NCBI GenBank assembly: GCA_030390025.1
Contig: CM059431.1
Location: 101,310,001-101,374,000, forward strand
DNA from: Squalus acanthias
Taxonomy: Eukaryota
Length of the DNA stretch: 64,000 nucleotides
Direction of reading: 5' to 3'
This document shows, in pieces, positions 4,119 to 55,831 of this stretch. The notes below the pieces were generated by a model, which saw only the letters and a list, made by a program, of their open reading frames with translations, made no database searches and was not told the DNA's origin. The translations under genes were made by a program, and so were the position numbers. Numbering within the stretch: position 1 is the stretch's first letter; every line of letters starts with the position of its first letter.

Positions 4119-4849
4119 TTAAAAAAAAATGCCCAATATCTATCAAAGGCTCAGGTGGTGTGCAAGTCACGAAGTGACACTTCCGTTCAGTGGAAATGTG
4201 AGGTAGTTTGATTTCCTGAGACGGTTGAAAGTCAAGATAAAAAAGACCTTAGAAGCTTAAGAATTGGTCTGTCCACATGTTAAACAAAATAAAATTGTCT
4301 GTGCCCACGCAAGCAACTCACTAACTCTCTTAACATAATTCCAACTTCACCCGAAAACAATAAGAATTTCATTTACAATCACGGCAGCATGTGGTATTGT
4401 CACTTTTTACCATTTTTTTTTGATGCGTAAAAAAAGAACATAAGAATTAGGAGCAGGAATCGGCCATATGTCCCGTCGAGCCTGCTCCACCATTCAATAA
4501 GATCATGGCTGATCTTCGACCTCAACTCCACTTTCCCGCCCGATCCCCATATCCCTTGATTCCCGTAGAGTCCAAAAATCTATCGATCTCAGCCTTAAAT
4601 ATACTCAATGACTCAGCATGCCCAGCCCTTTGGGGTAGAGAATTTCAAAGACACTCTGAGTGAAGAAATTCCTCCTCCTCACAGTCCTAAATGGCCGACC
4701 CCTTATCCTGAGACTGTGCCCCCTAATTCTAGACTCTCCAGCCAAGGGAAACAACCTCTCAGCAACAACCCGGTCAATCCCCTTCAGAATCTTGTATGTT
4801 TCAATGAGATCACCTCTCATTCTCTGAAACACCAGGGAGTATAGGCCCA
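4119..4849. repeat. Local duplication A, copy 1 (copy 2 at ~13288-13992)
   Basis: ~310 bp unique sequence plus the same CR1 3' junction in both copies, direct orientation. Confidence 0.92.
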
Positions 4850-4860
4850 TAGAGTATATA

Positions 4861-5243
4861 GGGGGAAAAATTTGGTATCGACCATTTTGGGGCGCTAACA
4901 TCGCCTGGGCGCTAACTTTAGCGCTGGTGACCGTAAAATTGAGTTTTAGCGCCCCAAGAGGGAAGTGGAGCGCTAAATCAAGCACTCCACTTCCTTCTTA
5001 GGGCGCCAATGGCGCTGAGCGGGGCAGAGACATCCTGCAGCTGTCGGTGTTTTTGACCGGCGCTGCTGCAGGGGGCGGAAGTCAATTTTGGGTCTGGGGC
5101 GCTACCAGGGCGATGACGTCATGATCTACAGGCGAAGGAGATCGGGGGGCAACGCCATAGCACCGCCACAAAGTCATTTACGCCCCGTTAGCGCCCCCCA
5201 GGGGGTGGTAACGGGAGCTGCAAAGACACCCGATTTCACCCCC
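4861..5243. mobile_element. GC-rich Harbinger-like MITE (short form)
   Basis: ggggg...ccccc ends, TSD ATA, similar to the ends of 10316-11088. Confidence 0.7.
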
Positions 5244-5904
5244 ATAGTATCTGTGATCAAAATGCATTGCGTAAAAAGAATTTTCTGTTTAGGATCGCTA
5301 TTTTTAAGCCATTGTTTGTATCCATGGTCATTCCACACTGAATGCTGGCACATCTGTCCCACAGCCCAGTAACTTCCGTTCTCCAACATACTTCTACAAC
5401 TCGAGTTCCTATTTCCTGATTTAACCCATCTTCTCTCTTACCCTTTCCAAACTTGGTAGTGTCCCGTACTGTTGGCCTTTCAAGTAGGTTTCTCAATTTT
5501 TTTTAAGCCTTTTGTGGCTAGATTTCAGGCACAAAAAACAAACCAGATTCAACCAAAAATATTAAGGAAGAAAGAGAAGCAAAATAAGCTTCTTACTTTG
5601 CTAACATTTAGGCTGGTAGAGATGCTAAGGACTGGTTTCTAAAACACCTCTGAGCTCGCAGAATTCACAAGCAGCTGGAGGGGGCGATTTTAGCTCTTCT
5701 CGCTCAGCAGAAAATTGGCGGGCGGGCTGTTAAAATCGCCCTGGCTCTTCCCTGTCCGAAAGTGGCCGTGATCGCAACATCTGCAATTTTAACCTGCTCT
5801 CCTGAGTGGGCAGCAAGGACACGCGCCCGGAGCCAACAGGGTCCTTCTTTACATCAGCATGTAACAGGCGTTTTTGGCCTCTCAGCGTGGTTCACAGCAC
5901 AGTT

Positions 5905-6505
5905 CAGGTCAGAGGCTGGGTATTCTGCAGCGAGTGTCTCACCTCCTGACTCCCCAAAGCTTTTCCACCATCTACAAGGCACAAGTCAGGAGTGTGATGG
6001 AATACTCTCCACTTGCCTGGATGAGTGCAGCTCCAACAACACTCAAGAAGCTCGACACCATCCAGGACAAAGCGTCCCGGTTGATTGGTACCCCATCCAC
6101 CACCTTAAACATTCACTCCCTCCACCACCGGCGTACCGTGGCTGCAGTGTGTACCATCTACAAGATGCACTGCAGCAACTTGCCAAGGTTTCTTCGGCAG
6201 CACCTCCCAAACCCGCCACCTCTTCCACCTAGAAGGACAAGGGCAGCAGACGCATGGGAACACCACCACCTCCAAGTTCCCCTCCAAGTCACACACCATC
6301 CTGATTTAGAAGTATATCGGCCGATCCTTCATCGTCGCTGGGTCAAAATCCTGGAACTCCCTCCCTAACAGCACTGTGGGGATACCATCACCGCACGACT
6401 GCAGCGGTTCAAGAAGGTGGCTCACCACCACCTTCTCAAGGGCAATTAGGGATGGGCAATAAATGCTGGCCTTGTCAGCGACGCCCACATCCCAGAAATT
6501 ATTTT
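5905..6505 (+). mobile_element. LINE family B 3' fragment inserted in a MITE
   Basis: GQRLGILQRVSHLL...; same 3' tail. Confidence 0.9.
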
Positions 6506-9011
6506 TTTTTTAAAGTTCAACTCCTCTGTCTCATTACCACGTTCAGACGGACTGCTGGACACATTTGAGTAGGATGAAAACAGTCACTGGAAACAGCAGC
6601 AGGTTAACTGCCAGTATGACAGGCTCCACTCCGCATACGATCGATCAAACCGTAAAAGAATTGAAATAAAACAATGACATCATTGTGACCCGACTGTAAT
6701 TTTAACTCAGCCCTGAGCAGCGAATCCACCTGGAGTTAAAATCTGGGCCAAAGCACTTTATAAATTTCTTTGTCGATGCTAAGAAATTTAGATGAAACAT
6801 TAGTTATTTTGCTGATCCTCTCACCAGACAGTTCTATCCATGCGAACTCTATAACAGCACTAAACTTGGGTTGTTAAATTATTTCTGAATGTTGCATTTT
6901 TCTCATTTTCCTCACAGACACATTTAAGGGGAAGCTCGATAAGTACATGAGGGAGAAAGGAATAGAAGGTTATGCTGATAGGGTGAGATGAAGAGGGGTG
7001 GGAGGAGGCTCGTGTGGAGCATAAACACCGACATAGACCAGTTGGGCCAAATGGCCTGTTTCTGTAGTGTCAATTCTACGTAATATTATTCTTCATCATA
7101 ATGATAGAAGCACCAACAAAAATATGGGTTAATGCCTTCTTGGTGCAGTTCGTTCAAACCTAAATATGGACTTGCGTCAGGGAAAAGGCACAGTGTAATT
7201 CAACGCACCATGTTCTTCATTCATACAACTTAACAAAACAACAAGATCAGATGATGGGAGCTGAGAAATGAATGAGAGCTGTGTTATAAATGTTCATGAA
7301 CACATGGATGTCTTTGTACTGTTGTGTTCCCAGGTTGGACACATCAATATGCGATGGATTTATACACTTATCACCATGAAGATAGCAGTGAACAATGCAA
7401 AATATTACATTGAGTTTAAAATTATACAATATATGTAAAGTACGTAATATAGATAAATGTTTGGCATTGTTGTTAAATCTGTTTCTTTATCAGCCCTCTT
7501 CCCTTTTCTCTCCTTCTAAAGGAATTAGAATCCAGTAAGCCTGATAGTCTCACTGACACTATCTCCCTTCAGCATCTTGTCCAAGTGACCGTTTTTCAAG
7601 TGTGAGACTAGATGGTGAGTGTTGTCGGGTTATTTTACCCTTTGGGGAAACATCACCCAACGTCCAACACTTGTACTCCCAACAATAGTCATGATAAAGG
7701 AATCATAGAATCAATCATACAGCACAGAAGGAGGCCATTCGGCCCATCGTGCCTGTGCCGGCTCTTTGAAAGAGCTCTTCAATTAGTCCCACTCCCCCTG
7801 CTCTTTCCCCACAGCCCTGTAAATTTCTCCTTTTCAAGTATTTATCCAATTCCCTTTTGAAAGTTACGATTGAATCTGCTTCCACCGCCCTTTCAGACAG
7901 CGCGTTCCAGATCACAACAACTCGCTGCGTTAAAAACATTCTCCTCATCTCCCCCTCTGGTTATTTTACCAATTATCTTCAATCTGTGTCCTCTGGTTAC
8001 TGACCCTCCTGCCACTGGAAACAGTTTCTCCCGATTTACTCCATCAAAACCCCTCATAATTTTGAACACCTCTATTAAATAGTATTTCTCCTGTTGTCCC
8101 CTTGGTTCGGATCAGCAAGATCAGCCCAAGCCTGGGCTCGAATTTAGAATCTACAGCTTTGTATGGTTAAGTTACTTACTGACTAAAATCCCGATTGTAG
8201 CTCTTACTGAACATTGATGTAGACTGGACAGGCTACTTGATGGTTTATTTCAGTGTTGTTTTCACACCTTTACACTTTGTGGTCTCGTTGACCCCTGTGT
8301 TTCTATTGATTATTTGTTCGTGTGGGGGGCGGATTTATTGCACATCTCTAATTGCCCCGAGACCTGGTGGTGGGCCTTCGGGCAATTTGTATTTGCAGCT
8401 GAGCAGCTTCAGAGGACATTAAGAGTCAATCACATAAAATGTGAACAAGTGGGCATAGCCTTAAAATTAGAGCCAGGCCCCACAGGGGTGATGTCAGGAA
8501 GCATTTCTTCACACAATGGGTAGTGGAAATCTGGAACTCTCTCCCCCAAAAAGCTGTTGAGGCTGGGGGTCAATTGAAAATTTCCAAACTGAGATTGATA
8601 GATTTTTGTTAGGCAAGGGTATTAAGGGTTACGGAACCAAGGCGGGTAAATGGAGTTAAGATACAGATCAGCCATGATCTCACTGAATGGAGGAACAGCC
8701 TCGAGGGGCTGAATGGCCTCCACCTGTTCCTATGTGAACTGGTGTCACAAGTAGGGCAGACTGGGTAGGTTCCCATCCCAGAAAGACGTTGTGAACCAGT
8801 TGGGTTTCATGGTCAGTTTTTTTCTGGGGCCTGCTCACAAATTACTAAATGTATTGATTTCATGTCGTGGTGAGATTTGAACTCATGTGGGGGGGGGGGG
8901 GATTTTTACCCTACTCGTTCAGCAGAAACCTGGCGGGTGGGCAGTTAGAATTGCTTTGGTTCTTACCTGTCCGAAAGCCGCCATGATCACAATATCTGCA
9001 ATTTTAACCTG

Positions 9012-9603
9012 GGGTACGGTAGCATAGTGGTTATGTTACTGGACAAGTAATCCAGAGGTAACAACAGAAAACGCTGGAAAAACTCAGCAGGCCAGGCAGC
9101 ATCCGTGGAGAGAGAAAGAGAGTTGACGTTTCAGGTCATCGACCTGAAACGTCAACTCTCTTTCTCTCTCCACGGATGCTGCCTGGCCTGCTGAGTTTTT
9201 CCAGCGTTTTCTGTTGTTATTTCGGATTTCCAGCATCTGCAGTATTTTGCTATCGAAGTAATCCAGAGGCCTGGACTAATGATCCCACCACAGCAGCTGG
9301 GGAATTTAAATTCAGTTAATTAAATAAATCTGGAATAAAAAGCTAGTATCAGTAATGGTGACCATGAAACTACCGGATTGTCATAAAAAAAAACATCTGG
9401 TTCACTAATGTCCTTTAGGGAAGGAAATCTGCCGTCCTTACCCGGTCTGGCCTACATGTGACTCCAGACCCACAGCAATGTGGTTGACTCTTAACTGCCC
9501 TCTGACACGGCCTAGCAAGCCACTCACTTAAGGGCAATTAGGGATGGGCAATAAATGCTGGCCTTGCCGGCAATGCCCACATCTCATGAATAAATTTTTT
9601 TAA
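9012..9603 (+). mobile_element. tRNA-derived SINE (family 2) sharing its 3' tail with LINE family B
   Basis: A-box-like ggtagcatagtgg, core ggtgaccatgaaactaccggattg...ctggttcactaatgtcctttagggaaggaaatctg, LINE-B tail; TSD aacctg at 9006-9011 and 9604-9609. Confidence 0.85.
9059..9255. mobile_element. Palindromic Penelope-derived short element
   Basis: Perfect inverted repeat 9059-9137 / 9141-9219 with ATC loop; similar to 49152-49275; 14-bp TSD aagtaatccagagg at 9045-9058 and 9256-9269. Confidence 0.85.
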
Positions 9604-10315
9604 AACCTGCTCTCCTGAGCAGGAAGCAAGGACATGCGCCCAGAGCCAACAGGGTCCTTCTTTACATATACATGTTGTGGCCTGACAACATAACTGAGAC
9701 CCAACTGTAATTTTAACTCAGGCCTGAGCGGGGAACCCAGCTGGAATTAAAATTGGGGCCCAATAGCTGGTACCATAACCATTACACTACCTTACCCTGT
9801 TCGCCGGGTGACATTGAAAAATACATTCTAAAAACAGTACCCTTTTACAGGTTCAATAGTACATCTTATTTGGAAGGGACAATAACTTGCATTTATATAG
9901 AGCCTTTAACATAGTAAAACGTCCCAAGCCGCGTCACAGAAGCGTTACCACACAAAATTTTACTCCGAGCCATATAGAAAGATATTAGGACAGGTTGGTC
10001 AAAGAGGTAGGTTTTAAGGAGCATCTTAAAGGAGGAGAGGGAGGCGGAGAGGTTTAGGGAGGAAATTCCAGAGTTTAGGGCCCAGGCAGCCGAAGGCGCG
10101 GCCGCCAGTGGTGGAGCGATGGAAATCAGGGGTGTACAAGAGGCCAGACTTGGAGGAGCGCACACATTGAGGTACACCAGTGTGTCACCATGAGAAACTG
10201 ACAAATGCAAATCTCTTGTATAAGTTACATAGTTATGGATACTATACATGTGTTAAAATACTGCAAGCATGTTTGGTGGGAAAAAGATGCTTGTTGTTGT
10301 GCAAATTGAGCTCTT

Positions 10316-11088
10316 GGGGGTAAAAATTGAGTCGCGCCCCATTTGGGGCGCTAACCTCGCCGGGGCGCGACTTTTAGCGCCCCGAAAAAATTAGCGGCCC
10401 CGCGCCGGAACTTCAGTGGTTGCGCCCCAAGAGGGAAGCGGGGCACCACTGGAAGCACCCCGCATCCCTCTTGGGGCGCTGCGAGTGAATATCCTGGCGC
10501 TACGTGCCGCAGCGCCATGCGCTGCGGCATGTCGCGCCGCGGTATTGCAGGCCTTCCTCCCCTTCTTAAAGGGGAGGGACCCTGCGCAGCGCGAACCGGG
10601 GCCCAGCTGGGCCCCCAGGGATCGGGAGTGCCAGCAAAAGAGCCCGGCACTCAAGAGAAGTGCCGGGCTCTTGGAGCGCAGCCGGCACTTCACGGTGGGG
10701 GGGCTTCACGGGGGCCGGGGACAGCAACGGGGGCAGGTGCTGGCAGGCGGCCAGCAACAAAAATGGCCGCCTGCCACCTCCCCTTTAAATATCGCCGCCC
10801 CGGCCGCACGTACGCCTCCCTGAACCCGTCGGACATAGCGTCTGGCGGTAAATCAGGGGGCGCGACTGAAGATCACGGCCGGGGCGCGAGCGGGGTGCTG
10901 CGCACGGCGATGACGTCATCGCCGGCGGCGCAGCGCCACAGGGCGCTACCGGCTGCCGCCGCCGCTAGCCTCCCACTAAATTTTTCGGGAGGCGTGGGCG
11001 GCGCTGCGCCCGGGCGTTAGCTGCTTTACGCCCCATTAGCGCCCTCTTAAGGCGCTAACGGGAGGCGCAAGCAGCTGAATTTTTCCCC
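10316..11088. mobile_element. GC/CpG-rich Harbinger-like MITE (long form)
   Basis: gggggtaaaaatt / aatttttcccc ends, probable TSD CTT; shares gcgccccaagagggaag, gcgatgacgtcat and tttacgcccc..tagcgccc with 4861-5243. Confidence 0.72.
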
Positions 11089-11439
11089 CTTAATGTCTAA
11101 CTATCAACATGTAGCTTGTTCACAAATATTTTTTTTTCCAAAGTTTCTGCAATTCCATTTCATTACTATGAAATGCCGTTTAACACTTTGCAAATTCTCA
11201 GCTAATACTGGCGGTATCTAGTGACCGAAACGAGTTTTGCACAGACATCTTTCTGTGGTAACTTAAAAAAATCGATGCAATAAGATGAACTCTGCACCAA
11301 AAAAAACTTTCTTTCGCACATGTAAACTGTTGGAACCATCGAAGTTCACAGGACAGATGGAGGCTATTTGGCCCATCATTTCTGGGCTGGCTCTCTCCTA
11401 GAGCAATCCAAGACTATTCCCACTTTCCTCCCACAACTC

Positions 11440-11561
11440 CAGTGTTCCCTCTAAGCTGTGCGGCCGTGCAGCTGTCTTGCGGTCCCGGGACCGGCTTTTC
11501 CAATCTGAAATGAAACTTCGAATGGGCTGCGCATCCCAAAAATGAATTTGGGTGAACATTG
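11440..11561. mobile_element. hAT-like mini-MITE, same family
   Basis: cagtgttccc / gtgaacattg, TSD cacaactc / tacagctc, shared gaatgggc.gcgca.cc.aaaaa. Confidence 0.7.
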
Positions 11562-12057
11562 TACAGCTCTATGTCTTCCTATGCTTCAAATATTAACAAG
11601 TGGAATTTAAGGAGCATCCGATTGATTACTGTTTAATTCGTAACCTGTTCCTGAGCACCATCCCCTATGGTTCCTAGTCTCAGAATCATGTCCGACAATA
11701 TTATTTTGCAATGTTTTATCTGCTTCAATAAAGTGGCAGCTACATTATTGTTTAATTATACAGGGTGTATTTGCAATTGGAATAGGGTCCAGCTAGCTAT
11801 TGAACTCATTCTAATAACAACTTTCCTTACGTTTCATTCTGTCGTGAACCAGACTTTTTGAAAATATTTGGAACCCAGCACTGAAATAATATTATTCATG
11901 AACCAGTACAGCCAAAAACTAGCTTTGTTACCGTGCTAACCACTAACTCTTGTCAGTCACGTTTCACATTGAAAACAAGCGAATGGTTTTCTATAGTCTG
12001 GTGCACACATTTTAACGTCACACTGTTCTGTGTGAACTTTGTGTAGCCTTGAAAAAA

Positions 12058-12525
12058 GAAAAGAAAGACTTGCATTTCTACAGCGCCTTTCACGACCTCA
12101 GGATGTCCCAAAGCACTTTACAGCCAATGAAGTACTTTTGAAGTGTAGTCACTGATATAATGTAGGAAACGCGGCAGCCAATCTGCACACAGCAAGCTCC
12201 CACAAACAGCACTGTGATAATGACCAGATATTCTGATTTTTTTTTTTTACTGATGTTGGTTGAGGGATAAATATTGGCCAGAACACCGGGGTGAACTCCC
12301 CTGCTCTTCTTTGAAATAGTGCCGTGGGGTCCTTTACGTCCATTCGAGAGGGCACACCGGGGCCTTGGTTTAACGTTTCTTCCAAAAGACGGCACCTCCA
12401 ACAGTGCAGCACTCCCTCAGTACTACACTGGGAATGTCAGCCTGGATTCTGTGTTCAAGTCTCTGGAGTGAGACTTGAACCCATGACCTTCTGACTCCGA
12501 GGGGAGAGTGCTGTCCACTGAGCGA
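12058..12525 (-). mobile_element. Deu-SINE
   Basis: Same family. Confidence 0.87.
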
Positions 12526-12801
12526 CTAAAAAAGGAGTGTTTCCAGTTTCCAGCTCATACATAGAAAAAAATTTGATGTATGAATAAAATGCTCTAAATT
12601 AGCTTTGTATGTTTTACAAGAGTGAATGCGGATAACGGAACAAAACCATATCAGGTCACCGCAAGTAACCCATAGTCCTGTGATGCTTTAGCTTGGACAT
12701 GGCGAAGGATCAGTCCTGAACTAGCTGCAAGAAATACCAGTGTTTGTCATTCTTGCTCAAAGAAGTTGCATTTTGGAAAAAAAACAACAGATTGGCAAGT
12801 G

Positions 12802-13297
12802 TCAATTCCCAGATCCTGATGCAGACCCTTGGATTTGACTCACTGTGGCAGGAGTGCTGTTGTTTTCAGAGTTGATCTTCACGGAGCTGGGCAAAGACAA
12901 CGTGATGTGGCGTCTTAATATGCTCAAAACCTTCCTTTTGTAGCCCTTGAAGGCAAAGAAGTAGATAAGCGGATCGACGCAGCAGTTGAGGTTCATGAAG
13001 CAGACGGACACCTGCAGGGTCACCTTGAAGACCTGCTGCTGCCAACAGGTCTGTTGGGAGATAAGCTTCCGGATCATGTACTGGATGATGGTGATGTGAT
13101 AAGGAGTGAAGCAGATCAGAAATGCTATCAGAACAAGCAGAATCATGGTGATGGCCTTTTTGTTCATGTATGACTGTATGACCCAAAAAACAGGCACAGA
13201 GAAGTAGCTTGGCCAGGTTAGTATTTGTTTCAAAGTTTGGGTATTCCATGCGGATAAGCATGCCATTATTCTCTTTGGGCATTGCCATTAAAAAGAA
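12802..13297 (-). pseudogene. GPR183-like paralog pseudogene fragment (ECL2 to C-terminus)
   Basis: One frame gives FFLMAMPKENNGMLIRMEYPNFETNTNLAKLLLCACFLGH (ECL2/TM5), a second gives MNKKAITMILLVLIAFLICFTPYH...NCCVDPLIYFFAFKGYKRK...stop. TM1-TM4 absent, about 30 codons of TM5/ICL3 deleted with frameshift, ECL2 Cys replaced by Arg. Confidence 0.88.
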
Positions 13298-15039
13298 ATG
13301 CCCAATATCTATCAAAGGCTCAGGTGGTGTGCACTTCCGTTCAGTGGAAATGTGAGGTAGTGTGATTTCCTGAGACGGTTGAAAGTCAAGATAAAAAAGA
13401 CCTTAGAAACTGAAGAATTGGTCTATCCACATGTTAAACAAAATTAAATTGTCTGTGCCCACGCAGGCAACTCACTAACTCTCAACATAATTCCAACTTC
13501 ACCTGAAAGCAATAAGAATTTCATTTACAATCACGGCAGCATGTGGTATTGTCACTTTTTACTATTTTTTTTGATGCGAAAAAAAAGTAAGAACATAAGA
13601 ATTAGGAGCAGGAATATGCCATACGTCCCTTCGAGCCTGCTCCACCATTCATGGCTGATCTTCGACCTCAACTCCACTTTCCCGCCCGATCCCCATATCC
13701 CTTGATTCCCCAAGAGTCCAAAAATCTATCTTTTTCAGCCTTGAATATACTCAACGACTCAGCAACCACAGCCCTCTGGGGTAGAGAATTCCAAAGATTC
13801 ACAACCCTCTGAGTGAAGAAATTCCTCCGCATCTCAGTTTTATATGGCCTACCCCTTATCCTGAGACTATGCCCCCTAGTTCCAGACTCTCCAGCCAGGG
13901 GAAACCAACCTCTCAGCATCTACCCTGTCAATCCCCCTCAGAATCTTGTATGTTTCAATAATTTCACCTCTCATTCTTCCAAACTCCAGATAGTAAACGC
14001 CCAATCGACTCAATTTCTCCTCATAGGACAACACTCTGATCCTAGGGATCAATCTAGTGAAGTCTAGCCAAGTGATTTTTATTGAATGTACTCTGCCACT
14101 TTATGATGAAACAAAGATTCCAGGAAATCGTGCTACCATTTTGGTACACTTCAGCTCCAGGTGAGCTTCAATGCATTCAACAAAGTCGCTCTAGCCCACT
14201 GCCAAGTCAAGGAATTGCCTTGAAGGTGCCCGTCATGGCAAACAGTCAACCATTGTTTTTTAATGAATCAGCCCAGTTTTCAATATGAAATGGGAGAATA
14301 CTTGGAATAAAGTACTACTTAATAACGATCTTGTCTCATACCTCATCTCAGCAACCTCCACTAGCATTATACCTACACTGCCCCCCCGACACCCTTTGAT
14401 CCTCTGATTCTGGCCATTTTTGCAGAACCTCCCCTGTTGGTATGGAGGTATTTGAACACAAGGATGAGAATTTTAAATTTGAGGTGTTGCTGGACCAGGA
14501 CCCAACGTGGATCAGCGAGCACAGGAGTGATGGGTGAACGGGACTTGGTGCGAGTTAGTACATGGGCAGCAGAGCTTCGGATGAGCTGAAGTTTACGGAG
14601 GGTGGAAGATGGGAGGCTGGCCAGGGGAGAATTAAAATCATTGAGTCTGGAGGTAATAAAAGCACACAGAGAGCCCTGATAAATGAAAAGACATCTGAAA
14701 GGTTCCATGTGAAAGTATACTGTTCAAAAATGAACCAGGAACTGGAAACATGCAATTTCCTTCCAATGTTGTCCCGTCTTTTCTTTGTCTCCTGAAATTG
14801 CTGGGAAATGACTCCATAGGTGTTGGCAGTTCTCCAGGAGCTTGACTAAGTGGTCATTCTATACAACTTTGAGTTACATCATCACCTTTAATCTTGTTCC
14901 AGTCTGTTCGTCACTTTCCACTGGACCCAAGACATGATTCCAAGTTATCCTGCAAGGGACCATGGAACAGCTGCTGGATCTAACACCAGCAGTGGCTTTA
15001 ACTCGGTTATGATCGTTTTATTAAGCTACCTAGGCTTCC

Positions 15040-16555
15040 ACATGCTGAAGACTTGTGCTCCAGAACTAGCTGCGCCTCTAGCCAAGCTGTTTCAGTACAG
15101 CTACAAAACTGGCATCTATCCGACAATGTGGAAAACTGCCCAGGTATGTCCTGTCCACAAAAAGCAGGACAAATCCAATCCAGCCAATTGCCACCCCATC
15201 AGTGTACTCTCAATCATCAGCAAAATGATGGAAGGTGTCATCGACAGTGCTATCAAGCGGCACTTACTCACCAATAACCTGCTCACTGATGCCCAGTTTG
15301 GGTTCCGCCAAGACCACTTGGCTCCCGACCTCATTACAGCCTTGGTCCAAACATGGACAAAGGAGCTGAATTCCAGAGGTGAGGTGAGAGTGACTGCCCT
15401 TTACATCAAGGCAGCATTTGACCGAGTGTGGCATGAAGGAGCCCTAGTAAAGCTGAAGTCAATGGGAATCGGGGGGAAGACTCTCCACTGGCTGGAGTCA
15501 TACCCAGCAGAAAGGAAGATGGTTGTGGTGATTGAAGGTCAATCACCACATCCCCAGGACATCGCTGCAGGAGTTCCTCAGGGCAGTGTCCTAGGCCCAA
15601 CCATCTTCAGCTGCTTCATCAATGACCTTTCCTCCATCATAAGGTGATAAATGGGGATGTTCGCTGACGACTGCACAGTGTTCAGCGCCATTCACAACTC
15701 TTCAGATAATGAAGCAGTCCATGACCGTATGCAACAAGACCTGGACGATGTTCAGGCTTGGGCCGATAAGTGGCAGGTAACATTCGCGCCACAGAAGTGC
15801 CAGGCAATGACTATCTCCAACAAGCGAGAGTCTAACCACCGCCTCTTGACATTCAATGGCATAACCATCGCCGAATCCCCCACCATCAACATCCTGGGGG
15901 TCACCATTGACCAGAAACTTAACTGGACCAGCCACATAAATACTGTGGCAACAACAGCAGGTCAGAGGCTAGGTATTCTGCGGTGAATGTCTCACCTCCT
16001 GACTCCCCAAAGCCTTTCCACCATCTACAAGGCACAAGTAAGGAGTGTGATGGAATACTCTCCACTTGCCTGGATGAGTGCAGCTCCAACAACACTCAAG
16101 AAGCTCGACACCATCCAGGACAAAGCAGCCCGCTTGATTGGCACCCCATCCACCACCTTAAACATTCACTTCCCTCCACCACCGGCGTACCGTGGCTGCA
16201 GTGTGTATCTACAAGATGCACCGCAGCAACTCGCCAAGGCTTCTGCGGCAGCACCTCCCAAACCCGCGACCTCTACCACCTTGAAGGACAAGGGCAGCAG
16301 GCGCATGGGAACACCACCACCTCCAAGTTCCCATCCAAGTCACACATCATCCTGACTTAGAAGTATATCGCCGATCCTTCATCGTCGCTGGGTCAAAACC
16401 ATGGAACTCCCTCCCTAACAGCACTGTGGGAGCACCTTCACCAAACGGACTGCAGTGGTTCAAAAAGGCAGCTCACCACCACCTTCTCAAGGGCAACTAG
16501 GGATGGGCAATAAATGCTGGCCTTGCCAGCGACGCCCACATCGCATAAAAACTAA
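15040..16555 (+). mobile_element. Second CR1/L2-group LINE family (family B), 5'-truncated
   Basis: LKTCAPELAAPLAKLFQ, QFGFRQ, GVPQGSVLGP, MFADDC, IYKAQVRSVMEYS; tail aagggcaactagggatgggcaataaatgctggccttgccagcgacgcccacatc. Confidence 0.92.
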
Positions 16556-16990: not shown

Positions 16991-18089
16991 TTTTTTTAAG
17001 TGTACAGTTTGTTTCCAAGAAAAAGAATTACTGCATTCTTTTCAACCTTTTTCCAACAGTTCTTAGCATAGAAGATAGGAGCAGGAGTAGGCCATTTGGC
17101 CCCTCGAGCCTGTTCCGCCATTTAATGAGATCATGGCTGATCATCCAAATTCAGTACTCTGTCCCTGCTTTCTCCCCATATCCCTTGATCCCTTTAGCCT
17201 TAAGAAATATATCTATCTCCTTCTTGAATATATTTAATGAATTGGCCTCTACTGCCTTCTGTGGTAGAGAACTCCACAGGTTCACCACTCTCTGGGTGAA
17301 GAAATTCCTCCTCATCTCAGTCCTAAATGGCTTACCTCTTATCCTTAAACTGTGACCCCTGGTTCTGGACTCCCCCACCATCGGGAACATCCTTCCTGCA
17401 TCTAGTCTGTCTAGTCCTGTTAGAATTTAATAAGTTGCAATGAGATCCCCTCTCATTCTTCGAAACTCTGGCGAACATAAGCCTAATTGACCCAATCTCT
17501 CTTCATACGTCATTCCTGCCATCCCAGGTATCAGTCTGGTAAATCTTCGCTGCACTCCCTCCATGGCCCAAAGATAGCATCAGATGTTTTTTTAAGTTTT
17601 GCTTGAATGCTAATTCTCTACAGGACACTTTTTTAATAAAAATTGAAAAGTGTTTGCAAATATCACATGTTGCACATTTAGACACCAGCAGCAATCTGCC
17701 TACCTTTGTAAAAGACTTTCTGCATCCAGTGCAGAGTCGGAACAGGTTGGAAAAGTTTCAGTTCTTTAAAATAAAATAATGAACTGTACTGCTAAATCAG
17801 CAGGGCACAAGTCTGAGGATATCATGCTGAAATTCGACAGCGCTCTGCTCAGATTGCACCCTGGATTTCTGTGTCCAATTCTGGCCACCCAGACACTCAA
17901 ATCACTGGAGGCAGTGCAGAAAAGAGGCACGGGGCTGATTCCTTGTGCCTAGGATCGAGGCAGAAGGAAAAACAGAAGAGAGTTTCAGCCTTGAAAGGAG
18001 GTGAGTGAGACGGAATGTAATAAAGAGATATAAGATAGTAAACAGTTCAGAAAAGGTAAATCAGGAATACTATTTCAAATTCAGAAAGG

Positions 18090-18548: not shown

Positions 18549-18854
18549 AACCATGAAAGTAAGAAAAGGGGGATACTGGTTGAAACTTGGGATTGCCAGC
18601 AAGAGGTTCTTCTTCGCATGAAGAGTGATCAAAACATGGAGTTGACTCGGGGTACAGTAGTCGAGGTGAATATTTTTGAGAGGCAGTGGATGTTGCAATG
18701 GAGGGATTGTAGATTTACTTAGATACATGTATGTTGGGTCAAATGATCTTCTACGTTCAAATTTATCTTATGATCAAACTACAAATGTGTAGTCTTTTTA
18801 CAATACTTACTTCTCAAACAAAATAAGCAAACTTGTCCAATGATCAATGCACAT

Positions 18855-21158
18855 GCTGGGGAAGAGGTGGGCCAGGTCGACCAAGTGACTGTGGGAGAAC
18901 ACTTGGGTACGAGTGATCATCGTATCATAAGATTTAGATTAGCAATTGAGAGGAGCAAGGAACAATCTAGAGTGGAACTTCGAAACTGGAATAGGGTTAA
19001 CTTCAATGGAATGCGAAAGGATCTAGCCAGAGTTAAATGGAACCAAAGACTGACAGGAAAAACTGTAACGGAACAATGGGTGATCTTTGAGGAGGAGATG
19101 TTCCAAGTACAGGCTAGGTACATTCCAACAAGAGGGAAGGGTAAGGGAACCAAAGCAAGGGCTCCTTGGATGACGAGGGAGATAGAGAAGATGATGAAAC
19201 AAAAAAAGAGGGTGTATGATGAATGTCAAGTGAATTCTTCAAGGGAGAACCAGACCAAATACAATAAGTTGAGAGGGGAAGTGAAGATGAAAATAAGATT
19301 GGCAAAGAGAGAATATGAGAGTAGAATGACGGTTAACATAAAAGGGAACCCAAAAATCTTCTACCAGCATGTAAACATTAAGCGGGTAGTAAGAGGCGGG
19401 GTGGGGCCTATTAGGGACAAAGAAGGTGATATATGCTTAGACTCGCAGGGCAAGGCTAGAATGCTCAATGAGTACTTTGTATCGTGTTTACTAAGGAGGT
19501 GGATGCTGACAAAATATCAGTAGAAGTGGAAAAGGTAGAAGCAATGGAAGGGGTGAAAATTGATAGACAGGATGTACTAGAAAGGCTGGGAATGCTTAGA
19601 GTGGATAAGTCGCCTGGTCCAGATGGCTTGCATCCCAGGTTGCTAAGGGAATTGGGGGAGGAGAAAGTGGAAGGGCTTGCCATAATTTTACAATCTTCCC
19701 TAGATGCAGCGGAGGTGCCTGAGGATTGGAAAGTGGCAAATGTGACACCATTGTTCAAGAAAGGGTGTAAGGACAATCCTAGTAACTACAGGCCGGTCAG
19801 TTTAACATCAAGGGTGGGTAAAGTTTTATAAACAATAATCAAGGAAAAAATTAACGGGCACTTGGAGAGGTTTAAGCTAATTAAGAAGAGCCAACACGGA
19901 TTTGTAAAAGGCAGATCGTGTTTGACTAATCTAATTTAATTTTTTGATGAAGTAACAGGGAGGATTGATGAAGGGAATGCAATGGATGTTGTCTACATGG
20001 ATTTTCGGAAGGCGTTTGACAAAGTACCACATAGAAGGCTGGTTAACAAAATTGGAGCTCATGGAATAGGTGGGTCAGTGGCAGCTTGTATAAGGAACTG
20101 GCTTAAGGACAGATGTGGTAAATGGCTGTTTTTCAGACTGGTGGATGGTAGACAGTGGTGTTCCCCAAGGGTCAGTGCTGGGGCCACTGCTTTTTTTGAT
20201 ATACATAAATGACCTGGATATTGGAATACAGAGTAGAATTTCCAAATTTGCCGATGACACCAAACTTGGGGGTGTGGCAAACAGTGATAATGATATCAAT
20301 CGACTGCAACAGGACATAGAAAGGCTAGCAGAATGGGCAGACAAGTGGCAGATGGAATTTAATACAGAGAAGTGTGAGGTGATGCATTTTGGCAGAAGGA
20401 ATAGGGAGAGGCAATATACACTTAATGGCACAGTTTTAAAGAGTGTGCAGGGACAGAGGGACCTGGGAGTTAATGTGCATAGGTCCCTTAAGGTGGCGGG
20501 ACATATTGAGAGAGTGGTTAACAAAGCATATGGGATCTTGGGTTTTATAAATAGAGGTATTAAGTACAAAAGTAGAGAAGTTATGCTAAACCATTATAAA
20601 GCGCTGGTTAGGCCACAACTGGAGTATTGCGTCCAGTTCTGGTCACCACACTTTAGGAAGGATGTGAAGGTGCTTGAGAGGGTGCAGAGGAGACTGGTTC
20701 CGGGATGGGAGATCTTTGCTACAAGGACAGGTTGGAGAAGCTGGATTTGTTTTCATTAGAGCAAAGGAGGTTGAGGGGTGATTTGATAGAGGTGTACAAG
20801 ATTATGACAGGTTTGGATAGGCTAGACGGGGAAAGGCTGTTCCCACTAGTTGATGGTACAAGGACTAGGGGACACAGATTTAAGGTTTTGGGCAAGAGAT
20901 GCAGGGGGGACGTGAGGAAAAACTTTTTTACGCAGCGAGTGGTGATGACCTGGAACTCGCTGCCAACGGAAGTGGTGGAAGCGGAGACACTCAATGTTTT
21001 CAAGGGGAGACTGGATAGGCACTTGAGGGAAATAAACTTGCAGGGCTACGGGGATAGAGCGGGGGAATGGGACTGACTGGATTGCTCTACAGAGAGCTGG
21101 CACGGACTCGATGGGCCGAATGGCCTCCTTCTATGCCATTATGACTCTATGACTATGA
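18855..21158 (+). mobile_element. CR1 LINE ORF2 fragment (endonuclease end to 3' tail), disrupted
   Basis: HLGTSDH, KSPGPDGLHPRLL, WKVANVTPLFKKG, GVPQGSVLGP, KFADDTK across several frames; tail atgactctatgactatga. Confidence 0.95.
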
Positions 21159-26413: not shown

Positions 26414-27900
26414 AACATAAGAACATAAGAAATAGGAGCAGGAGTAGGCCAATCGGCCCCTCGAGCCTGCTCCGCCATTCAATAAGATCATGGCTGATCT
26501 GATCCTAACCTCAAATCTAAAGAACACAAGAAGTAGGAGCAGGACCCGGCCACTCAGCCCCTGGGCCCGCTCCGCCACCCACAGGGCCTTGACCGATCCG
26601 AACTCAGCCTCATGTCCAATTTCCTGCCCGCTCCCCGTAACCCCTAATTCCCTTTACTTCTAGGAAACTGTCTATTTCTGTTTTAAATTTATTTAATGAT
26701 GTAGCTTCCACAGCTTCCTGGGGCAGCAAATTCCACAGACCTACTACCCTCTGAGTGAAGAAGTTTCTCCTCATCTCAGTTTTGAAAGAGCAGCCCCTTA
26801 TTCTAAGATTATGCCCCCTAGTTCTAGTTTCACCCATCCTTGGGAACATCCTAACCGCATCCACCCGATCAAGCCCCTTCACAATCTTATATGTTTCAAT
26901 AAGATCGCCTCTCATTCTTCTGAACTCCAATGAGTAGAGTCCCAATCTACTCAACCTCTCCTCATATGTCCACCTCCTCATCCCCGGGATTAACCGAGTG
27001 AACCTTCTTTGTACTGCCTCAAGAGCAAGTATGTCTTTTCTTAAGTATGGACACCAAAACTGTATGCAGTATTCCAGCTGCGGTCTCACCAATACCTTAT
27101 ATAACTGCAGCAATACCTCCCTGTTTTTATAATCTATCCCCCTAGCAATAAAAGCCAACATTCCGTTGGCCTTCTTGATCGCCTGCTGCACCTGCATACT
27201 AACTTTTTGATTTTCTTGCACTGGGACCCCCAGATCCCTTTGTACTGCAGTACTTTCCAGTTTCTCGCCATTAAGATAATAACTTGCTCTCTGATTTTTC
27301 CTGCCAAAGTGCATAACCTCACATTTTCCAATATTGTATTGCATCTGCCAAATCTCCGCCCACTCACCCAGCCTGTCTATATCCCCTTGTAGGTTTTTTA
27401 TGTCCTCCTCACTTTCTACTTTCCCTCCCATCTTTGTATCATCTGCAAACTTTGATATGTTACACTCGGTCCCCTCCTCCAAATCGTTAATATAGATTGT
27501 AAAGAGTTGGGGACCCAGCACCGACCCCTGCGGAACACCACTGGCTACTGGTTGCCAGTCCGAGAATGAACCATTTATCCCAACTCTCTGCTTCCTGTTA
27601 GATAACCAATCCTCCACCCATGCCAGAATATTACCCCCAATCCAGTGATTTTTTATCTTGAGCAATAATCTTTTATGTGGCACCTTGTTGAATGCCTTCT
27701 GGAAGTCTAAATACACTACGTCCACTGGTTCCCCTTTATCCACCCTGTACGTTATGTCCTCAAAGAACTCAAGCAAATTTGTCAGACATGACTTCCCCTT
27801 CATAAAGCCATGCTGACTTTGTCCTATTAAATTATGTTTATCTAAATGTTCCGTTACTGTCTCCTTAATAATAGACTCCAAAATTTTACCCACCACAGAT
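26414..27900 (-). mobile_element. CR1 LINE, 5'-truncated, young, intact 428-aa RT C-terminal ORF (26610-27896)
   Basis: SQHGFMKGKSCLTNLL, YLDFQKAF, GVPQGSVLGP, KFADDTK, VRPQLEYC, TRGH, NFFTQRVV; CR1 3' UTR and ttcttatg tail. Confidence 0.95.
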
Positions 27901-28158
27901 GGGTAAAACAGAGACCCTTTTTATGTGGACAGATCTTTAGACTGACTCACAACTCCCTGTAAGAAGACCGACTAGATGCCATTTGGGGGATCATCACTCC
28001 ACTCCCATCGGGGGGGCAAGTATCCTGCTGGATGCCAATCCAGTATTCAGAGGCAGGGAATCTCACCACCATTTACCGAGGCTGTATGAAGTGAGGATGC
28101 TTGCTTTTCTTTTTGGCAAATGAGACACACAATAAGTAATAAGTAATAAATCTACAAC

Positions 28159-31621: not shown

Positions 31622-31669
31622 CAATCCACTGAATGCCAAAATCCATATAGTGGTACTAGACGTCAAAAG
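31622..31669 (-). CDS. UBAC2: UBAC2 internal coding exon (48 bp, equivalent to human exon 6)
   Basis: Minus strand ttttgcattgcAG|CTT TTG ACG TCT AGT ACC ACT ATA TGG ATT TTG GCA TTC AGT GGA TTG|GTaagt = LLTSSTTIWILAFSGL, vs recalled human LFTSGSYIWIVAISGL; phase 0 fits the preceding exon. Not in the ORF track. Confidence 0.92.
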
Positions 31670-34435: not shown

Positions 34436-34559
34436 CTGCAGACCCACAATGTAGACAAGGGTTTTGTTTGTTATGGAGAAGCTGCCCAGGATTTGCGTCA
34501 CTTGAACACTTGGAATGGAGTAGAAGAAAGGTACAAACAGAGCAAAGACGGGACCCAGA
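34436..34559 (-). CDS. UBAC2: UBAC2 internal coding exon (124 bp, equivalent to human exon 5)
   Basis: Minus strand cttcatcttAG|T CTG GGT CCC...CTG CAG|GTatg encodes LGPVFALFVPFFYSIPSVQVTQILGSFSITNKTLVYIVGLQ, matching recalled human LAPVFALFVPFYCSIPRVQVAQILGPLSITNKTLIYILGLQ. Confidence 0.95.
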
Positions 34560-54751: not shown

Positions 54752-55831
54752 ATGAATCACTCAACAACTCATCGCAACACTTCTGCAAACAACACTGATG
54801 AAGAATGTAATCTGTACGCCCACCGCCATACGGCCAAGATCCTTTTACCTTTAGTCTATTCCATCATATGTTTAGTTGGCGTCTTTGGCAATATCCTAGC
54901 CATAGTAGCCATCAAAAAAAAGCAGAAAAAAATCAATTCAACTACACTTTACTCCATGAATCTGGTGATCTCAGACATTTTCTTTGCGGCTGTTTTACCC
55001 GCGCGGATAATATACTACGCACGAGGATTTAACTGGCCATTTGGTGAAGCACTGTGCCGAGTTACCGCAGTCATCTGTTACAGCAACATATATGCCAGCG
55101 TAAGCTTCATGACCTGCTTAAGCTTGGACAGGTTCGTCGCTGTAATATATCCGTTCCGCTATTCCAAGCTCAGAAACGTCCGCAACGTCAAGAAAGTCTG
55201 CGTTGTTGTGTGGATCATTATACTCTGCCAGACAATGCCACTGCTGCTTTTACAGATGTCTAAAGAGGTTCAAGGCAACTACATGACGTGCATGGAATAT
55301 CCAAATTTTGAGAGTTTGCCAAATCTTCCAGAAATGCTTCTTGGCGCTTGCATTATCGGTTACATTCTCCCCGTGGGCATCATGCTGTTTTGTTACTCGC
55401 AGGTCAGTTCAAAGCTCTTCAGGACAGCAAAGCAGAACCCCTTAACTGAAAAGTCAGGAAGAAACAAAAAAGCCAACAACGTTATCTTGCTCGTACTTTT
55501 CGTGTTCTTCATATGTTTCACTCCATACCACGTGGCCATTCTGCAGCACATGATCAAAAAGCTGAGTTACACGCCGTCCTGCCGAGAGCAACAGGATTTT
55601 CAGATAGCTCTCCACGTGACTGTTTCAGTGATGAACTTCAATTGCTGCCTGGACCCTTTCATCTACTTCTTTGCCTGCAAGGGCTACAGGACCATCGTCC
55701 TCAAGATGATCAGGCGGCCCGTTAGCGTATCTATTTCAAGTGGAGTTAAGTCTATCGCAGACATCAGCTCACCACCCGGTGTGGGGAGTCACTTGCACGC
55801 AGCAGGGACAACTTCCGACACCAACTTGTAG
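54752..55831 (+). CDS. GPR183: G protein-coupled receptor 183 (EBI2, oxysterol receptor), uninterrupted CDS, 359 aa from first ATG
   Basis: 7TM class A ORF with CNLYAHRHTAKILLPLVYS, KKINSTTLYSMNLVISD, LPARIIYY, SLDRF, TCMEYPNFE, NPLTEKSG, CFTPYHVAI, NCCLDPFIYFFACKGY, all characteristic of GPR183. Splice acceptor tttgcttctttaacAG ends at 54702. Antisense nesting upstream of the UBAC2 exon matches human synteny. Confidence 0.96.
   Translation: MNHSTTHRNTSANNTDEECNLYAHRHTAKILLPLVYSIICLVGVFGNILAIVAIKKKQKKINSTTLYSMNLVISDIFFAAVLPARIIYYARGFNWPFGEALCRVTAVICYSNIYASVSFMTCLSLDRFVAVIYPFRYSKLRNVRNVKKVCVVVWIIILCQTMPLLLLQMSKEVQGNYMTCMEYPNFESLPNLPEMLLGACIIGYILPVGIMLFCYSQVSSKLFRTAKQNPLTEKSGRNKKANNVILLVLFVFFICFTPYHVAILQHMIKKLSYTPSCREQQDFQIALHVTVSVMNFNCCLDPFIYFFACKGYRTIVLKMIRRPVSVSISSGVKSIADISSPPGVGSHLHAAGTTSDTNL

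What the first reader, a model, noticed from the sequence alone, without database searches (positions are those of the whole stretch)
12802..13297. A second, divergent GPR183/EBI2 paralog broken inside a different UBAC2 intron
Seen: ECL2 MEYPNFE, TM6 CFTPYH and TM7 NCCVDPLIYFFAFKGY, clearly diverged from the intact GPR183 at 54.7 kb, on the opposite strand and on the other side of the two UBAC2 exons. The last ~120 codons are still stop-free. Established: human UBAC2 hosts GPR18 and GPR183 only, both antisense. Inference: an old GPR183 sister lineage lives or lived at this locus in UBAC2-sense orientation, and this copy was disabled fairly recently.
Basis: partly seen in the sequence, partly recalled or inferred. 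Interest (0 to 1): 0.72.

Follow-up and report, generated by a model that had tools for sequence, protein, structure and literature searches.

The report
Truncated duplicate of a GPR183-like gene
This is a dead, half-length copy of a second EBI2/GPR183-type receptor gene that survives intact 137 kb away on the same chromosome, so it is an ordinary young duplication relic, not the last trace of a lost gene.

Summary
Window 12802-13291 (minus strand) carries ECL2, TM6, TM7 and the C-tail of a GPR183-type receptor. It is 47-49% identical to the intact GPR183 at 54.7 kb.

It is not a resident gene that decayed here. The same genome holds an intact 355-codon gene 137 kb upstream on the opposite strand. 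That gene matches the last 120 codons at 99%.

Window ~5244-13291 is an inverted segmental duplicate of that gene's 3' half plus 4.1 kb of its downstream flank. Unique sequence differs by about 1.3%. The copy sits in a UBAC2 intron between two copies of a local ~0.4 kb target segment. One breakpoint cuts the coding sequence at about codon 165. A complex deletion, 99 nt replaced by 13, adds a frameshift.

Contigs from two independent samples bridge both lesions.

The parent belongs to an ancient gnathostome sister clade of GPR183, annotated "GPR183-like" in other cartilaginous fishes. No named mammal falls in it. The parent lies 44 kb beyond UBAC2's last coding exon, convergent with it.

Verdict: ordinary duplicated pseudogene fragment, low interest.

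The parts
12802..13168 (-). 3' remnant of the GPR183-like coding sequence: parent codons 236-355 plus the stop codon (end of ICL3, TM6 with CFTPYH, TM7 with DPLIY, C-tail). Reads in frame -2.
   Evidence: tblastn of parent P0001: aa 236-355, 99.2% of 120. 3 mismatches in 364 aligned nt. Pfam 7tm_1 positions 197-260 of 260.
13169..13181 (-). Complex deletion junction. 13 nt stand where the parent has 99 nt (rest of TM5 and most of ICL3), a net loss of 86 nt that shifts the frame. Nine of the 13 nt match a stretch inside the deleted interval.
   Evidence: Alignment; block ends. An identical 96-nt contig (13116-13211, 0 differences) occurs in runs X1 and X5.
13182..13291 (-). ECL2 / start-of-TM5 remnant (parent codons ~165-202, MEYPNFE), frame -1. 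It is unusually diverged from the parent: 8 of 110 nt.
   Evidence: (78.9% of 38 aa).
13288..14003 (.). X2: a non-parent segment that abuts the truncated coding sequence. U2 (13288-13588) occurs only twice in the genome. T2 (13588-14003) is a LINE-tail repeat. X2 is a direct repeat of X1.
   Evidence: Self-blast 13288-14003 vs 4119-4849, 87.5%. Genome search for U2: 2 of 2 candidates, itself and 4123-4436. U1/U2 are 96.3% alike over 298 nt. Contigs of X1, X5 and X6 bridge 13288.
4119..4849 (.). X1: the other copy of the target segment (U1 4119-4434, T1 4434-4849) at the far end of the inserted duplicate. The first ~90 nt of T1 follow T2. Its right end runs on collinear with the parent's LINE tail.
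   Evidence: One search counts informative sites: 4434-4520 gives 14 T1=T2 against 1 T1=parent; 4761-4862 gives 2 against 7.
5244..13291 (-). Inverted segmental duplicate of G000:C7:101184934-101189638 (3' half of the parent gene plus 4.1 kb downstream). It is interrupted by window-only blocks at 5707-7735, 9012-9603 and 10316-11088.
   Evidence: Collinear inverted blastn blocks. 192 mismatches in 4591 aligned nt overall. 1.26% mismatch in 11089-12050, 0.8-2.5% in 12521-13168.
12056..12520 (.). SINE in the duplicated 3' flank, present in both copies. Its body (12060-12400) is ~12% diverged although both flanks are ~99% alike.
34436..34559 (-). UBAC2 coding exon (aa ~130-171 of a sawshark UBAC2). 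Context only.
   Evidence: 90.5% of 42 aa; AG/GT borders.
31622..31669 (-). UBAC2 coding exon (aa ~172-187). Context only.
54752..55831 (+). Intact canonical GPR183 (359 codons plus stop), antisense in the upstream UBAC2 intron. Context only.

Best explanation
The fragment is a non-functional, 5'-truncated partial copy of an intact GPR183-like gene. That gene lies 137 kb upstream on the same chromosome, on the other strand.

About 4.7 kb of the parent locus was copied in inverted orientation into an intron of UBAC2. The copied stretch runs from about codon 165 of the gene to a LINE-tail repeat 4.1 kb past its stop codon.

- One junction lies inside the coding sequence and joins it to unique intron sequence, with at most a few bases of A/T-rich microhomology.
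- The other junction lies inside a LINE-tail repeat present at both sites.
- About 0.4 kb of the target (U plus the start of T) was duplicated on either side of the insert.

This layout, a second complex junction only 110 nt away, and a cluster of substitutions between the two junctions fit a replication-based template-switching or break-repair event. The copy never had a promoter, a start codon or TM1-4, so it encodes no receptor.

Shown: the homology, the inversion, the junctions, the lesions, the intact parent, and read support.

Inferred: that a single event made it, that the mechanism was template switching, and that truncation happened on arrival.
For: - Own-genome search with the 124-aa remnant gave 137 matches at E<=0.001, from 150 of 344 candidates scored. 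The best three are on C7: the fragment itself, a 379-aa open frame 98% identical at 101185144-101185506 (+), and the window's GPR183 at 48%. The next best are 32-37%.
- The parent frame reads a complete 355-aa receptor with full-length 7tm_1, positions 1-260 of 260.
- Inverted collinear blocks join window 5244-13291 to 101189638-101184934.
- Homology runs 4.1 kb past the stop codon and includes a shared SINE.
- Unique-sequence divergence is 12 of 953 nt (11089-12050) and 10 of 648 nt (12521-13168).
- The breakpoint is at parent codon ~165. 99 nt are replaced by 13 nt.
- U2 has only two copies in the genome, one flanking each end of the insert.
- The 13182-13291 piece has 8 of 110 mismatches, against about 1.4% beside it.
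- Contigs of X1 and of X5 (another sample and study) match the deletion junction exactly and bridge the 13288 junction. Contig depth over the part shared with the parent (20.9 and 32) is roughly 1.5 to 2 times that of the fragment-specific contigs (10.8-13.9 and 15.8-21.9).
- In the tree the fragment is sister to the parent (SH-aLRT 98).
Against: - Divergence is uneven along the duplicate: 1.1% to 5.3% at non-CpG sites per block, and ~10% in the SINE. A single recent event does not by itself explain this. It needs added ectopic conversion in repeats, assembly polishing error in repeats, or an older event with later conversion of the gene-proximal 2 kb.
- Four window-only blocks totalling about 3.8 kb sit inside the duplicate and were not characterised.
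- The middle of T1 resembles neither T2 nor the parent's repeat more than an unrelated family copy does. The left junction is therefore not resolved to the base.
- Later loss of a once-complete 5' half, together with adjacent target sequence, cannot be strictly excluded.
Confidence: 0.88

Rival explanations
1. In-place decay: a complete GPR183 sister gene once resided in this UBAC2 intron in sense orientation and was recently broken by deletions.
For: The last 120 codons are stop-free and differ from the parent in only one residue. A later deletion of the 5' half cannot be formally excluded.
Against: An intact, near-identical gene lies 137 kb away. The homology is an inverted block with 4.1 kb of that gene's flank, bounded by a duplicated local target segment. 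Unique sequence differs by about 1.3%, so this is a young secondary copy and not an old resident. In the one relative laid (organism B), the only contig found is the intact parent orthologue.
Confidence: 0.05
2. Assembly artefact: a false duplication or chimeric join of the parent locus into this intron.
For: The copies are near-identical over about 1 kb. Logan contigs collapse the two over 12484-13145.
Against: Fragment-specific sequence is found in runs of two samples from two studies: the 96-nt contig over the deletion junction, and the 185- and 200-nt contigs over the coding-sequence/U2 junction. X5 carries its own 15-nt indel allele there.
Confidence: 0.02
3. Retrocopy or LINE-mediated transduction: the fragment was carried here as RNA together with the adjacent LINE tail.
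For: A minus-strand LINE tail lies close by on the minus-strand 5' side of the remnant, at 13588-14003.
Against: The 300 nt that actually touch the fragment (U2) are not a dispersed repeat: there are only 2 copies in 3.7 Gb. Homology with the parent runs 4.1 kb past the stop codon through a SINE and other repeats. No poly(A) stands at the far end. A source element inside the parent gene does not exist, because the parent is intact.
Confidence: 0.03
4. The remnant is still used. For example, the 161-codon frame is spliced into sense UBAC2 transcripts, or yields a TM6-TM7 peptide or a regulatory RNA against the parent.
For: It lies in sense within a UBAC2 intron. The 364-nt coding remnant has 3 mismatches (0.8%), against 1.3-2.5% in neighbouring unique sequence. 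A run guessed to be RNA has low-depth contigs on it (X6).
Against: The difference in divergence is small, about 5 expected against 3 seen. The kind of run X6 is a guess, and intronic pre-mRNA would give the same cover. No promoter, start codon or tested splice site was found. It lacks TM1-5.
Confidence: 0.03

Closest known systems
"G-protein coupled receptor 183-like" of cartilaginous fishes (NCBI names for Heterodontus francisci, Heptranchias perlo, Chiloscyllium punctatum, Mustelus asterias, Scyliorhinus canicula, Mobula birostris, Narcine bancroftii). Also Callorhinchus and Latimeria entries that UniRef names Si:ch211-184m13.4.
   Same: The parent gene is 76-91% identical to these over 97-100% of its length and groups with them (SH-aLRT 99). 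The fragment is sister to the parent. The fragment's motifs (MEYPNFE, CFTPYH, DPLIYFFAFKGY) are those of this clade.
   Different: The fragment holds only codons ~165-202 and 236-355, with a frameshift between them, and sits on the other strand in a UBAC2 intron.
Canonical GPR183 / EBI2 (human structures 7TUZ and 7TUY; the window's own gene at 54.7 kb)
   Same: GPR183 is the best solved-structure match of the parent (7tuz_R, E 2.2e-122; next family 2.2e-50). The ligand-contact residues R87, Y112, Y116 and Y260 named in PMC13392048 (passages read) are invariant in the 7-sequence alignment that includes the parent.
   Different: Only 47-53% identity. It is a separate clade that splits before the cartilaginous/bony fish divergence. 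Of those residues the fragment keeps only the Y260 position.
Duplicated (non-processed) pseudogene fragments made by segmental duplication
   Same: Collinear homology of coding and flanking non-coding DNA, a truncated gene at the duplication edge, and an intact parent.
   Different: The copy is inverted and dispersed by 137 kb, and its insert is flanked by a ~0.4 kb duplicated target. A second complex junction lies 110 nt from the first, with a local excess of substitutions.

Membership tests
Rhodopsin-like GPCR (Pfam PF00001, 7tm_1) | A complete seven-helix domain | tested here: not met
   The fragment matches profile positions 197-260 of 260 only. The ECL2 piece alone matches no family. The parent and the 54.7 kb gene match 1-260.
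GPR183 family in the wide sense (clades A and B) | Closest to GPR183 among solved receptors and among database proteins | tested here: met
   Parent: 7tuz_R at E 2.2e-122 against 2.2e-50 for the next family. The named entries in the listed hits (best 120 of 398) that I read are mostly called GPR183 or GPR183-like. Fragment: 99.2% and 78.9% identical to the parent over its two pieces.
GPR183-like sister clade (clade B) | Falls in the clade with cartilaginous-fish GPR183-like, coelacanth, amphibian and sauropsid sequences, apart from canonical GPR183 | tested here: met
   IQ-TREE, 55 rows, 8 own-genome GPCRs as outgroup: clade B 23 rows (SH-aLRT 90), clade A 24 rows (90), fragment plus parent 98. 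FastTree, 130 rows: 35 in B and 87 in A, local support 95 each.
Functional oxysterol receptor of the GPR183 type | Ligand-contact residues R87(2.60), Y112(3.33), Y116(3.37) and Y260(6.51), and the TM3-ECL2 cysteine pair | tested here: not met
   The parent has all of them (invariant columns; residues named in PMC13392048). The fragment lacks TM1-4 and so lacks R87, Y112, Y116 and C104. Ligand binding itself was not tested for either.
Processed pseudogene (retrocopy) | Homology limited to the mRNA, a poly(A) tail, short target-site duplications | tested here: not met
   Homology runs 4.1 kb past the stop codon through repeats. The flanking duplication is ~0.4 kb. Loss of introns is uninformative because the coding sequence is a single exon.
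Unitary pseudogene (the lineage's only copy is lost) | No intact paralogue of the same lineage in the genome | tested here: not met
   An intact 355-codon parent is present.
Segmental-duplication pseudogene | Collinear duplication of gene plus flank, with the gene cut at the duplicate's edge, confirmed in reads | tested here: met

The most novel reading that the evidence does not exclude
Two things together.

(1) The fragment is a clean natural footprint of a replication-based template-switch rearrangement in a shark genome. Its marks are an inverted dispersed copy, a ~0.4 kb target duplication, two junctions 110 nt apart, and a five-fold local excess of substitutions between them.

(2) Its parent represents a second EBI2-type receptor that keeps all four named oxysterol-contact residues. 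It is retained from cartilaginous fishes to birds and is absent from all 21 named mammal sequences among the best 120 hits. In one frog it sits next to GPR183, by consecutive locus tags. Three literature searches found no description of it.
Probability: 0.35. Interest if true: 0.35.

Novelty: new member of a known kind. Interest (0 to 1): 0.2.

Why it matters
- For annotation: the fragment should be flagged as a duplicated pseudogene fragment. It is neither a gene nor evidence of gene loss. The species has two intact GPR183-type genes.
- For the biology of EBI2: the useful by-product is the parent clade. It is an old, mammal-lacking sister of GPR183 with the ligand-contact residues intact, and it is linked to the UBAC2/GPR183 locus. 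It is worth a ligand test in non-mammalian models.
- The rearrangement itself is a small, well-resolved example of how inverted dispersed duplications arise.

Tried and rejected
- Earlier notes of this scan gave nothing. The word UBAC2 was met in no finding, and no notes exist near the window.
- Short UBAC2 motifs recalled from memory found no exon in the six-frame translation. The exons were found instead through Pfam UBA on the own genome and a named shark UBAC2 protein.
- The Protein Data Bank holds no UBAC2 chain, so the UBA exon could not be named that way.
- The idea that the 300 nt next to the fragment (U2) are the 3' UTR of the neighbouring LINE, and hence a LINE insertion or transduction, was dropped because U2 has only two copies in the genome.
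- CpG decay as the cause of the uneven divergence was dropped because non-CpG sites show the same unevenness.
- A simple two-parent recombinant model for T1 was dropped because its middle part matches neither source better than an unrelated copy does.
- No RNA holder is listed for the stretch. X6 is only guessed to be RNA, so nothing is concluded on expression.
- Organism B (run X7) gave no cover of 13337-13519. Whether the relative lacks the fragment is left open.
- Papers:
  - Two searches for the sister clade's names gave 89 and 12 papers.
  - A third search, for GPR183, GPR18, UBAC2 and intron together, gave 2 papers.
  - No title or abstract start in the listings concerns its evolution.
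  - PMC6504862: section 42 was read. It names GPR183 only in a heading.
  - PMC11535055: passages were read. It cites GPR183 only in its references.
  - PMC7979698: passages were read. It places GPR18 and GPR183 in the UBAC2 LD block in man.
  - That the human genes are intronic and antisense is recalled, not checked.

Full report
**1. What is in the sequence**

On the minus strand of window 12802-13402, two reading frames carry receptor sequence.
- Frame -1 reads ...LMAMPKENNGMLIRMEYPNFETNTNLAKLLLCACFLG.
- Frame -2 is open for 161 codons (12802-13287). It reads ...MNKKAITMILLVLIAFLICFTPYH...NCCVDPLIYFFAFKGYKRKV... to a stop codon.

tblastn of the window's intact 359-aa GPR183 (54752-55828, +) against the window gave 4 HSPs at E<=10:
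- the gene itself;
- aa 234-356 on 13176-12808 (47.2%);
- aa 166-204 on 13291-13178 (48.7%);
- one chance hit.

Pfam 7tm_1 matches the long frame only over profile positions 197-260 of 260. This is a GPR183-type remnant, diverged from the 54.7 kb gene, on the other strand, with a stop-free tail.

**2. An intact, near-identical gene lies outside the window**

The own-genome search with the 124-aa tail gave 137 matches at E<=0.001, from 150 of 344 candidates scored. The best three are on the same contig:
- the fragment itself;
- a 98% match inside a 379-aa open frame at G000:C7:101185144-101185506 (+);
- the window's GPR183 at 48%.

All other matches are 37% or less.

The open frame holds a complete 355-aa receptor with a full 7tm_1 domain. 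tblastn of this parent against the window gives 99.2% over aa 236-355 and 78.9% over aa 165-202. It is 52.8% identical to the 54.7 kb gene. Nothing in the window matches parent aa 1-164.

**3. Anatomy of the copy**

BLASTN of window 1-24000 against 30 kb around the parent shows inverted collinear blocks:

| Window | Parent (G000:C7) |
|---|---|
| 5244-5706 | 101189638-101189170 |
| 7736-9011 | 101189171-101187903 |
| 9604-10315 | 101187908-101187200 |
| 11089-13168 | 101187202-101185143 |
| 13182-13291 | 101185043-101184934 |

- The copy thus comprises the gene from about codon 165 to the stop, plus 4.1 kb of downstream flank, in reverse orientation.
- Four blocks occur only in the window copy: 4862-5243, 5707-7735, 9012-9603 and 10316-11088.
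- At the coding end, homology stops at 13291.
- Between 13168 and 13182, 13 nt stand in place of 99 parent nt. This net loss of 86 nt removes most of TM5 and ICL3 and shifts the frame. Nine of the 13 nt repeat a stretch from inside the lost interval.

**4. The insertion site**

The 715 nt to the right of the fragment (13288-14003) match window 4119-4849 in direct orientation.
- The first 300 nt (U) occur only twice in the 3.7-Gb genome, at these two places. The two copies are 96.3% alike.
- The rest (T) is a LINE-tail repeat with many copies.
- The first ~90 nt of T1 follow T2: 14 informative sites against 1.
- The right end of T1 runs on, collinear, into the parent's own LINE tail and flank: 7 sites against 2.
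- The middle of T1 fits neither source better than an unrelated copy does.

The layout is therefore A - U - T(start) - [inverted parent segment] - U - T - B. This is an insert flanked by a ~0.4 kb duplicated target. One junction lies in a shared repeat and the other inside the coding sequence. That fixes the direction: the window copy is the derived one.

I infer one break-repair or template-switching event. The 110-nt ECL2 piece between the two close junctions has 8 mismatches (7.3%), against about 1.4% in the adjoining unique sequence. That fits error-prone synthesis near breakpoints, but this step is inference.

**5. Age**

- Unique sequence differs by 12 of 953 nt (11089-12050) and 10 of 648 nt (12521-13168).
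- Other blocks reach 3-6%, and the SINE body 12060-12400 reaches ~12% although both flanks are ~99% alike.
- Non-CpG sites show the same unevenness, so CpG decay is not the cause. Ectopic conversion among repeats or polishing error in repeats are possible causes. This remains unexplained.
- A 1666-nt contig of a related species (organism B, run X7) carries the ~100 nt that the fragment lacks, and runs on for about 790 nt beyond 13288. It is the orthologue of the parent.
- That contig differs from the fragment at 22 of 651 positions (3.4%) over 12515-13165, where fragment and parent differ at 9.
- Under a rough clock, the duplication is younger than the split of the two species.
- With substitution rates recalled for cartilaginous fishes (a few 1e-10 to 1e-9 per site per year; not from a call), 1.3% means roughly ten to a few tens of million years.

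**6. Read support**

Logan contigs of four runs were laid on 12300-14100.
- In X1, and in X5 (another sample and study of the same organism label), a 96-nt contig matches 13116-13211 without a difference. This covers the deletion junction, with 53 and 30 letters on either side of the 13-nt filler.
- Contigs of 185 nt (X1) and 200 nt (X5) bridge 13288. X6 has a 169-nt contig there.
- X5 carries a 15-nt insert behind 13331 that U1 also has, so this is a polymorphic indel.
- All three runs read A at 13252. That restores the ECL2 cysteine codon, so the Cys-to-Arg change is peculiar to the assembly.
- The contig shared with the parent has depth 20.9 (X1) and 32 (X5). Fragment-specific contigs have 10.8-13.9 and 15.8-21.9. 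This is as expected for two genomic copies.
- The fragment is therefore not an assembly artefact.

**7. Gene context**

- Pfam UBA on the own genome found a minus-strand match at C7:101229544-101229642. Its frame ends ...VARLMEMGFSRVDALEALRATNNDLNMATNFLLQH*.
- The protein search names it UBAC2. It is 100% identical over the exon to a sawshark UBAC2 (one search was a size slip).
- That 344-aa protein maps to 8 minus-strand places on C7 between 101229535 and 101448269.
- Two of these are window exons with AG/GT borders, at 34436-34559 and 31622-31669.

Hence:
- the canonical GPR183 is antisense in the ~89-kb intron upstream of the first window exon;
- the fragment is sense in the ~45-kb intron downstream of the second;
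- the parent lies 44 kb beyond the last coding exon, convergent with UBAC2.

**8. Which lineage**

- The parent's best database matches are "G-protein coupled receptor 183-like" of seven sharks and rays (76-91%). Next come Callorhinchus (82%, UniRef name Si:ch211-184m13.4) and Latimeria (56%).
- An IQ-TREE tree of 55 rows, with 8 other GPCRs of this genome as outgroup, gives two clades.
  - Clade B has 23 rows (SH-aLRT 90): cartilaginous fishes, Amia, a catfish, coelacanth, lungfish, amphibians, a turtle, a crocodile and birds.
  - Clade A has 24 rows (SH-aLRT 90): the canonical GPR183 of the same groups plus mammals.
  - Fragment and parent are sisters (98) within the cartilaginous-fish part of clade B (99). 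The 54.7 kb gene sits in the cartilaginous-fish part of clade A (99).
- A FastTree of the 120 listed hits and the two genes of this genome (122 rows), plus the outgroup, gives 35 in B and 87 in A, local support 95 each. All 21 named mammal sequences are in A. Only the best 120 of 398 hits were available.
- In Hymenochirus the two genes bear consecutive locus tags.
- By the contig lengths listed, the GPR183-like gene and UBAC2 share a chromosome-scale contig in 6 of 6 cartilaginous fishes where both are listed.
- The solved human GPR183 is the parent's best structural relative (7tuz_R, E 2.2e-122).
- The contact residues R87, Y112, Y116 and Y260 named in PMC13392048 (passages read) are invariant in an alignment of chimpanzee GPR183, both genes of this genome and four clade-B proteins.

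**9. Verdict**

- The old sister lineage is real, but it is already annotated in databases. It is alive in this genome.
- The window piece is a young, inverted, truncated segmental copy of it, with no start, no TM1-4 and a frameshift.
- It most likely does nothing. The small chance that it is spliced into UBAC2 transcripts could not be tested, because no run on record as RNA was listed.
- Three literature searches and the passages read gave no paper that describes the sister clade. This is a statement about those searches only.

Noticed in passing
window 13252: The assembly reads G, which makes the ECL2 cysteine codon an arginine codon on the minus strand. Contigs of runs X1, X5 and X6 all read A, the cysteine codon, as in the parent. 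This is a haplotype difference or a base error in the assembly.
   Followed up: partly
window 13331 (U2) and 4165-4179 (U1): Run X5's contig across the junction has a 15-nt insert behind 13331 that U1 also carries. The 15-nt gap in U2 is therefore polymorphic in the species.
   Followed up: partly
window 12060-12400: The SINE body is ~12% diverged between the two duplicate copies, while the flanks on both sides are ~99% identical. Non-CpG sites are affected too. Possible causes are ectopic conversion from other SINE copies or a polishing artefact.
   Followed up: partly
window 4862-5243, 5707-7735, 9012-9603, 10316-11088: Four blocks lie inside the duplicate but are absent from the parent locus. 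10355-11020 is G+C-rich with a 221-codon open frame. Whether they are later insertions, or templated pieces of the same rearrangement, is unknown.
   Followed up: no
window 17067-17567: This stretch is 95.8% identical, in direct orientation, to G000:C7:101196663-101197163 near the parent locus. It is either a young repeat copy or a further shared piece.
   Followed up: no
G000:C7:101184442-101185509 (L002:799-1866): An intact 355-codon GPR183-like gene of an ancient clade, with the four named GPR183 ligand-contact residues conserved and no named mammal member among the best 120 hits. It lies 44 kb beyond UBAC2's last coding exon, convergent with it.
   Followed up: yes
window 26610-27920 (minus), 14892-15986 (plus), 18774-21076 (plus): Long reverse-transcriptase open frames of LINE elements (436, 251+111 and 249-221 codons) fill much of the UBAC2 introns.
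   Followed up: no
G000:C7:101433744-101434001: The UBAC2 match for aa 65-153 here contains 6 stop codons within the match. It probably spans one short exon plus intron, and was not resolved.
   Followed up: no
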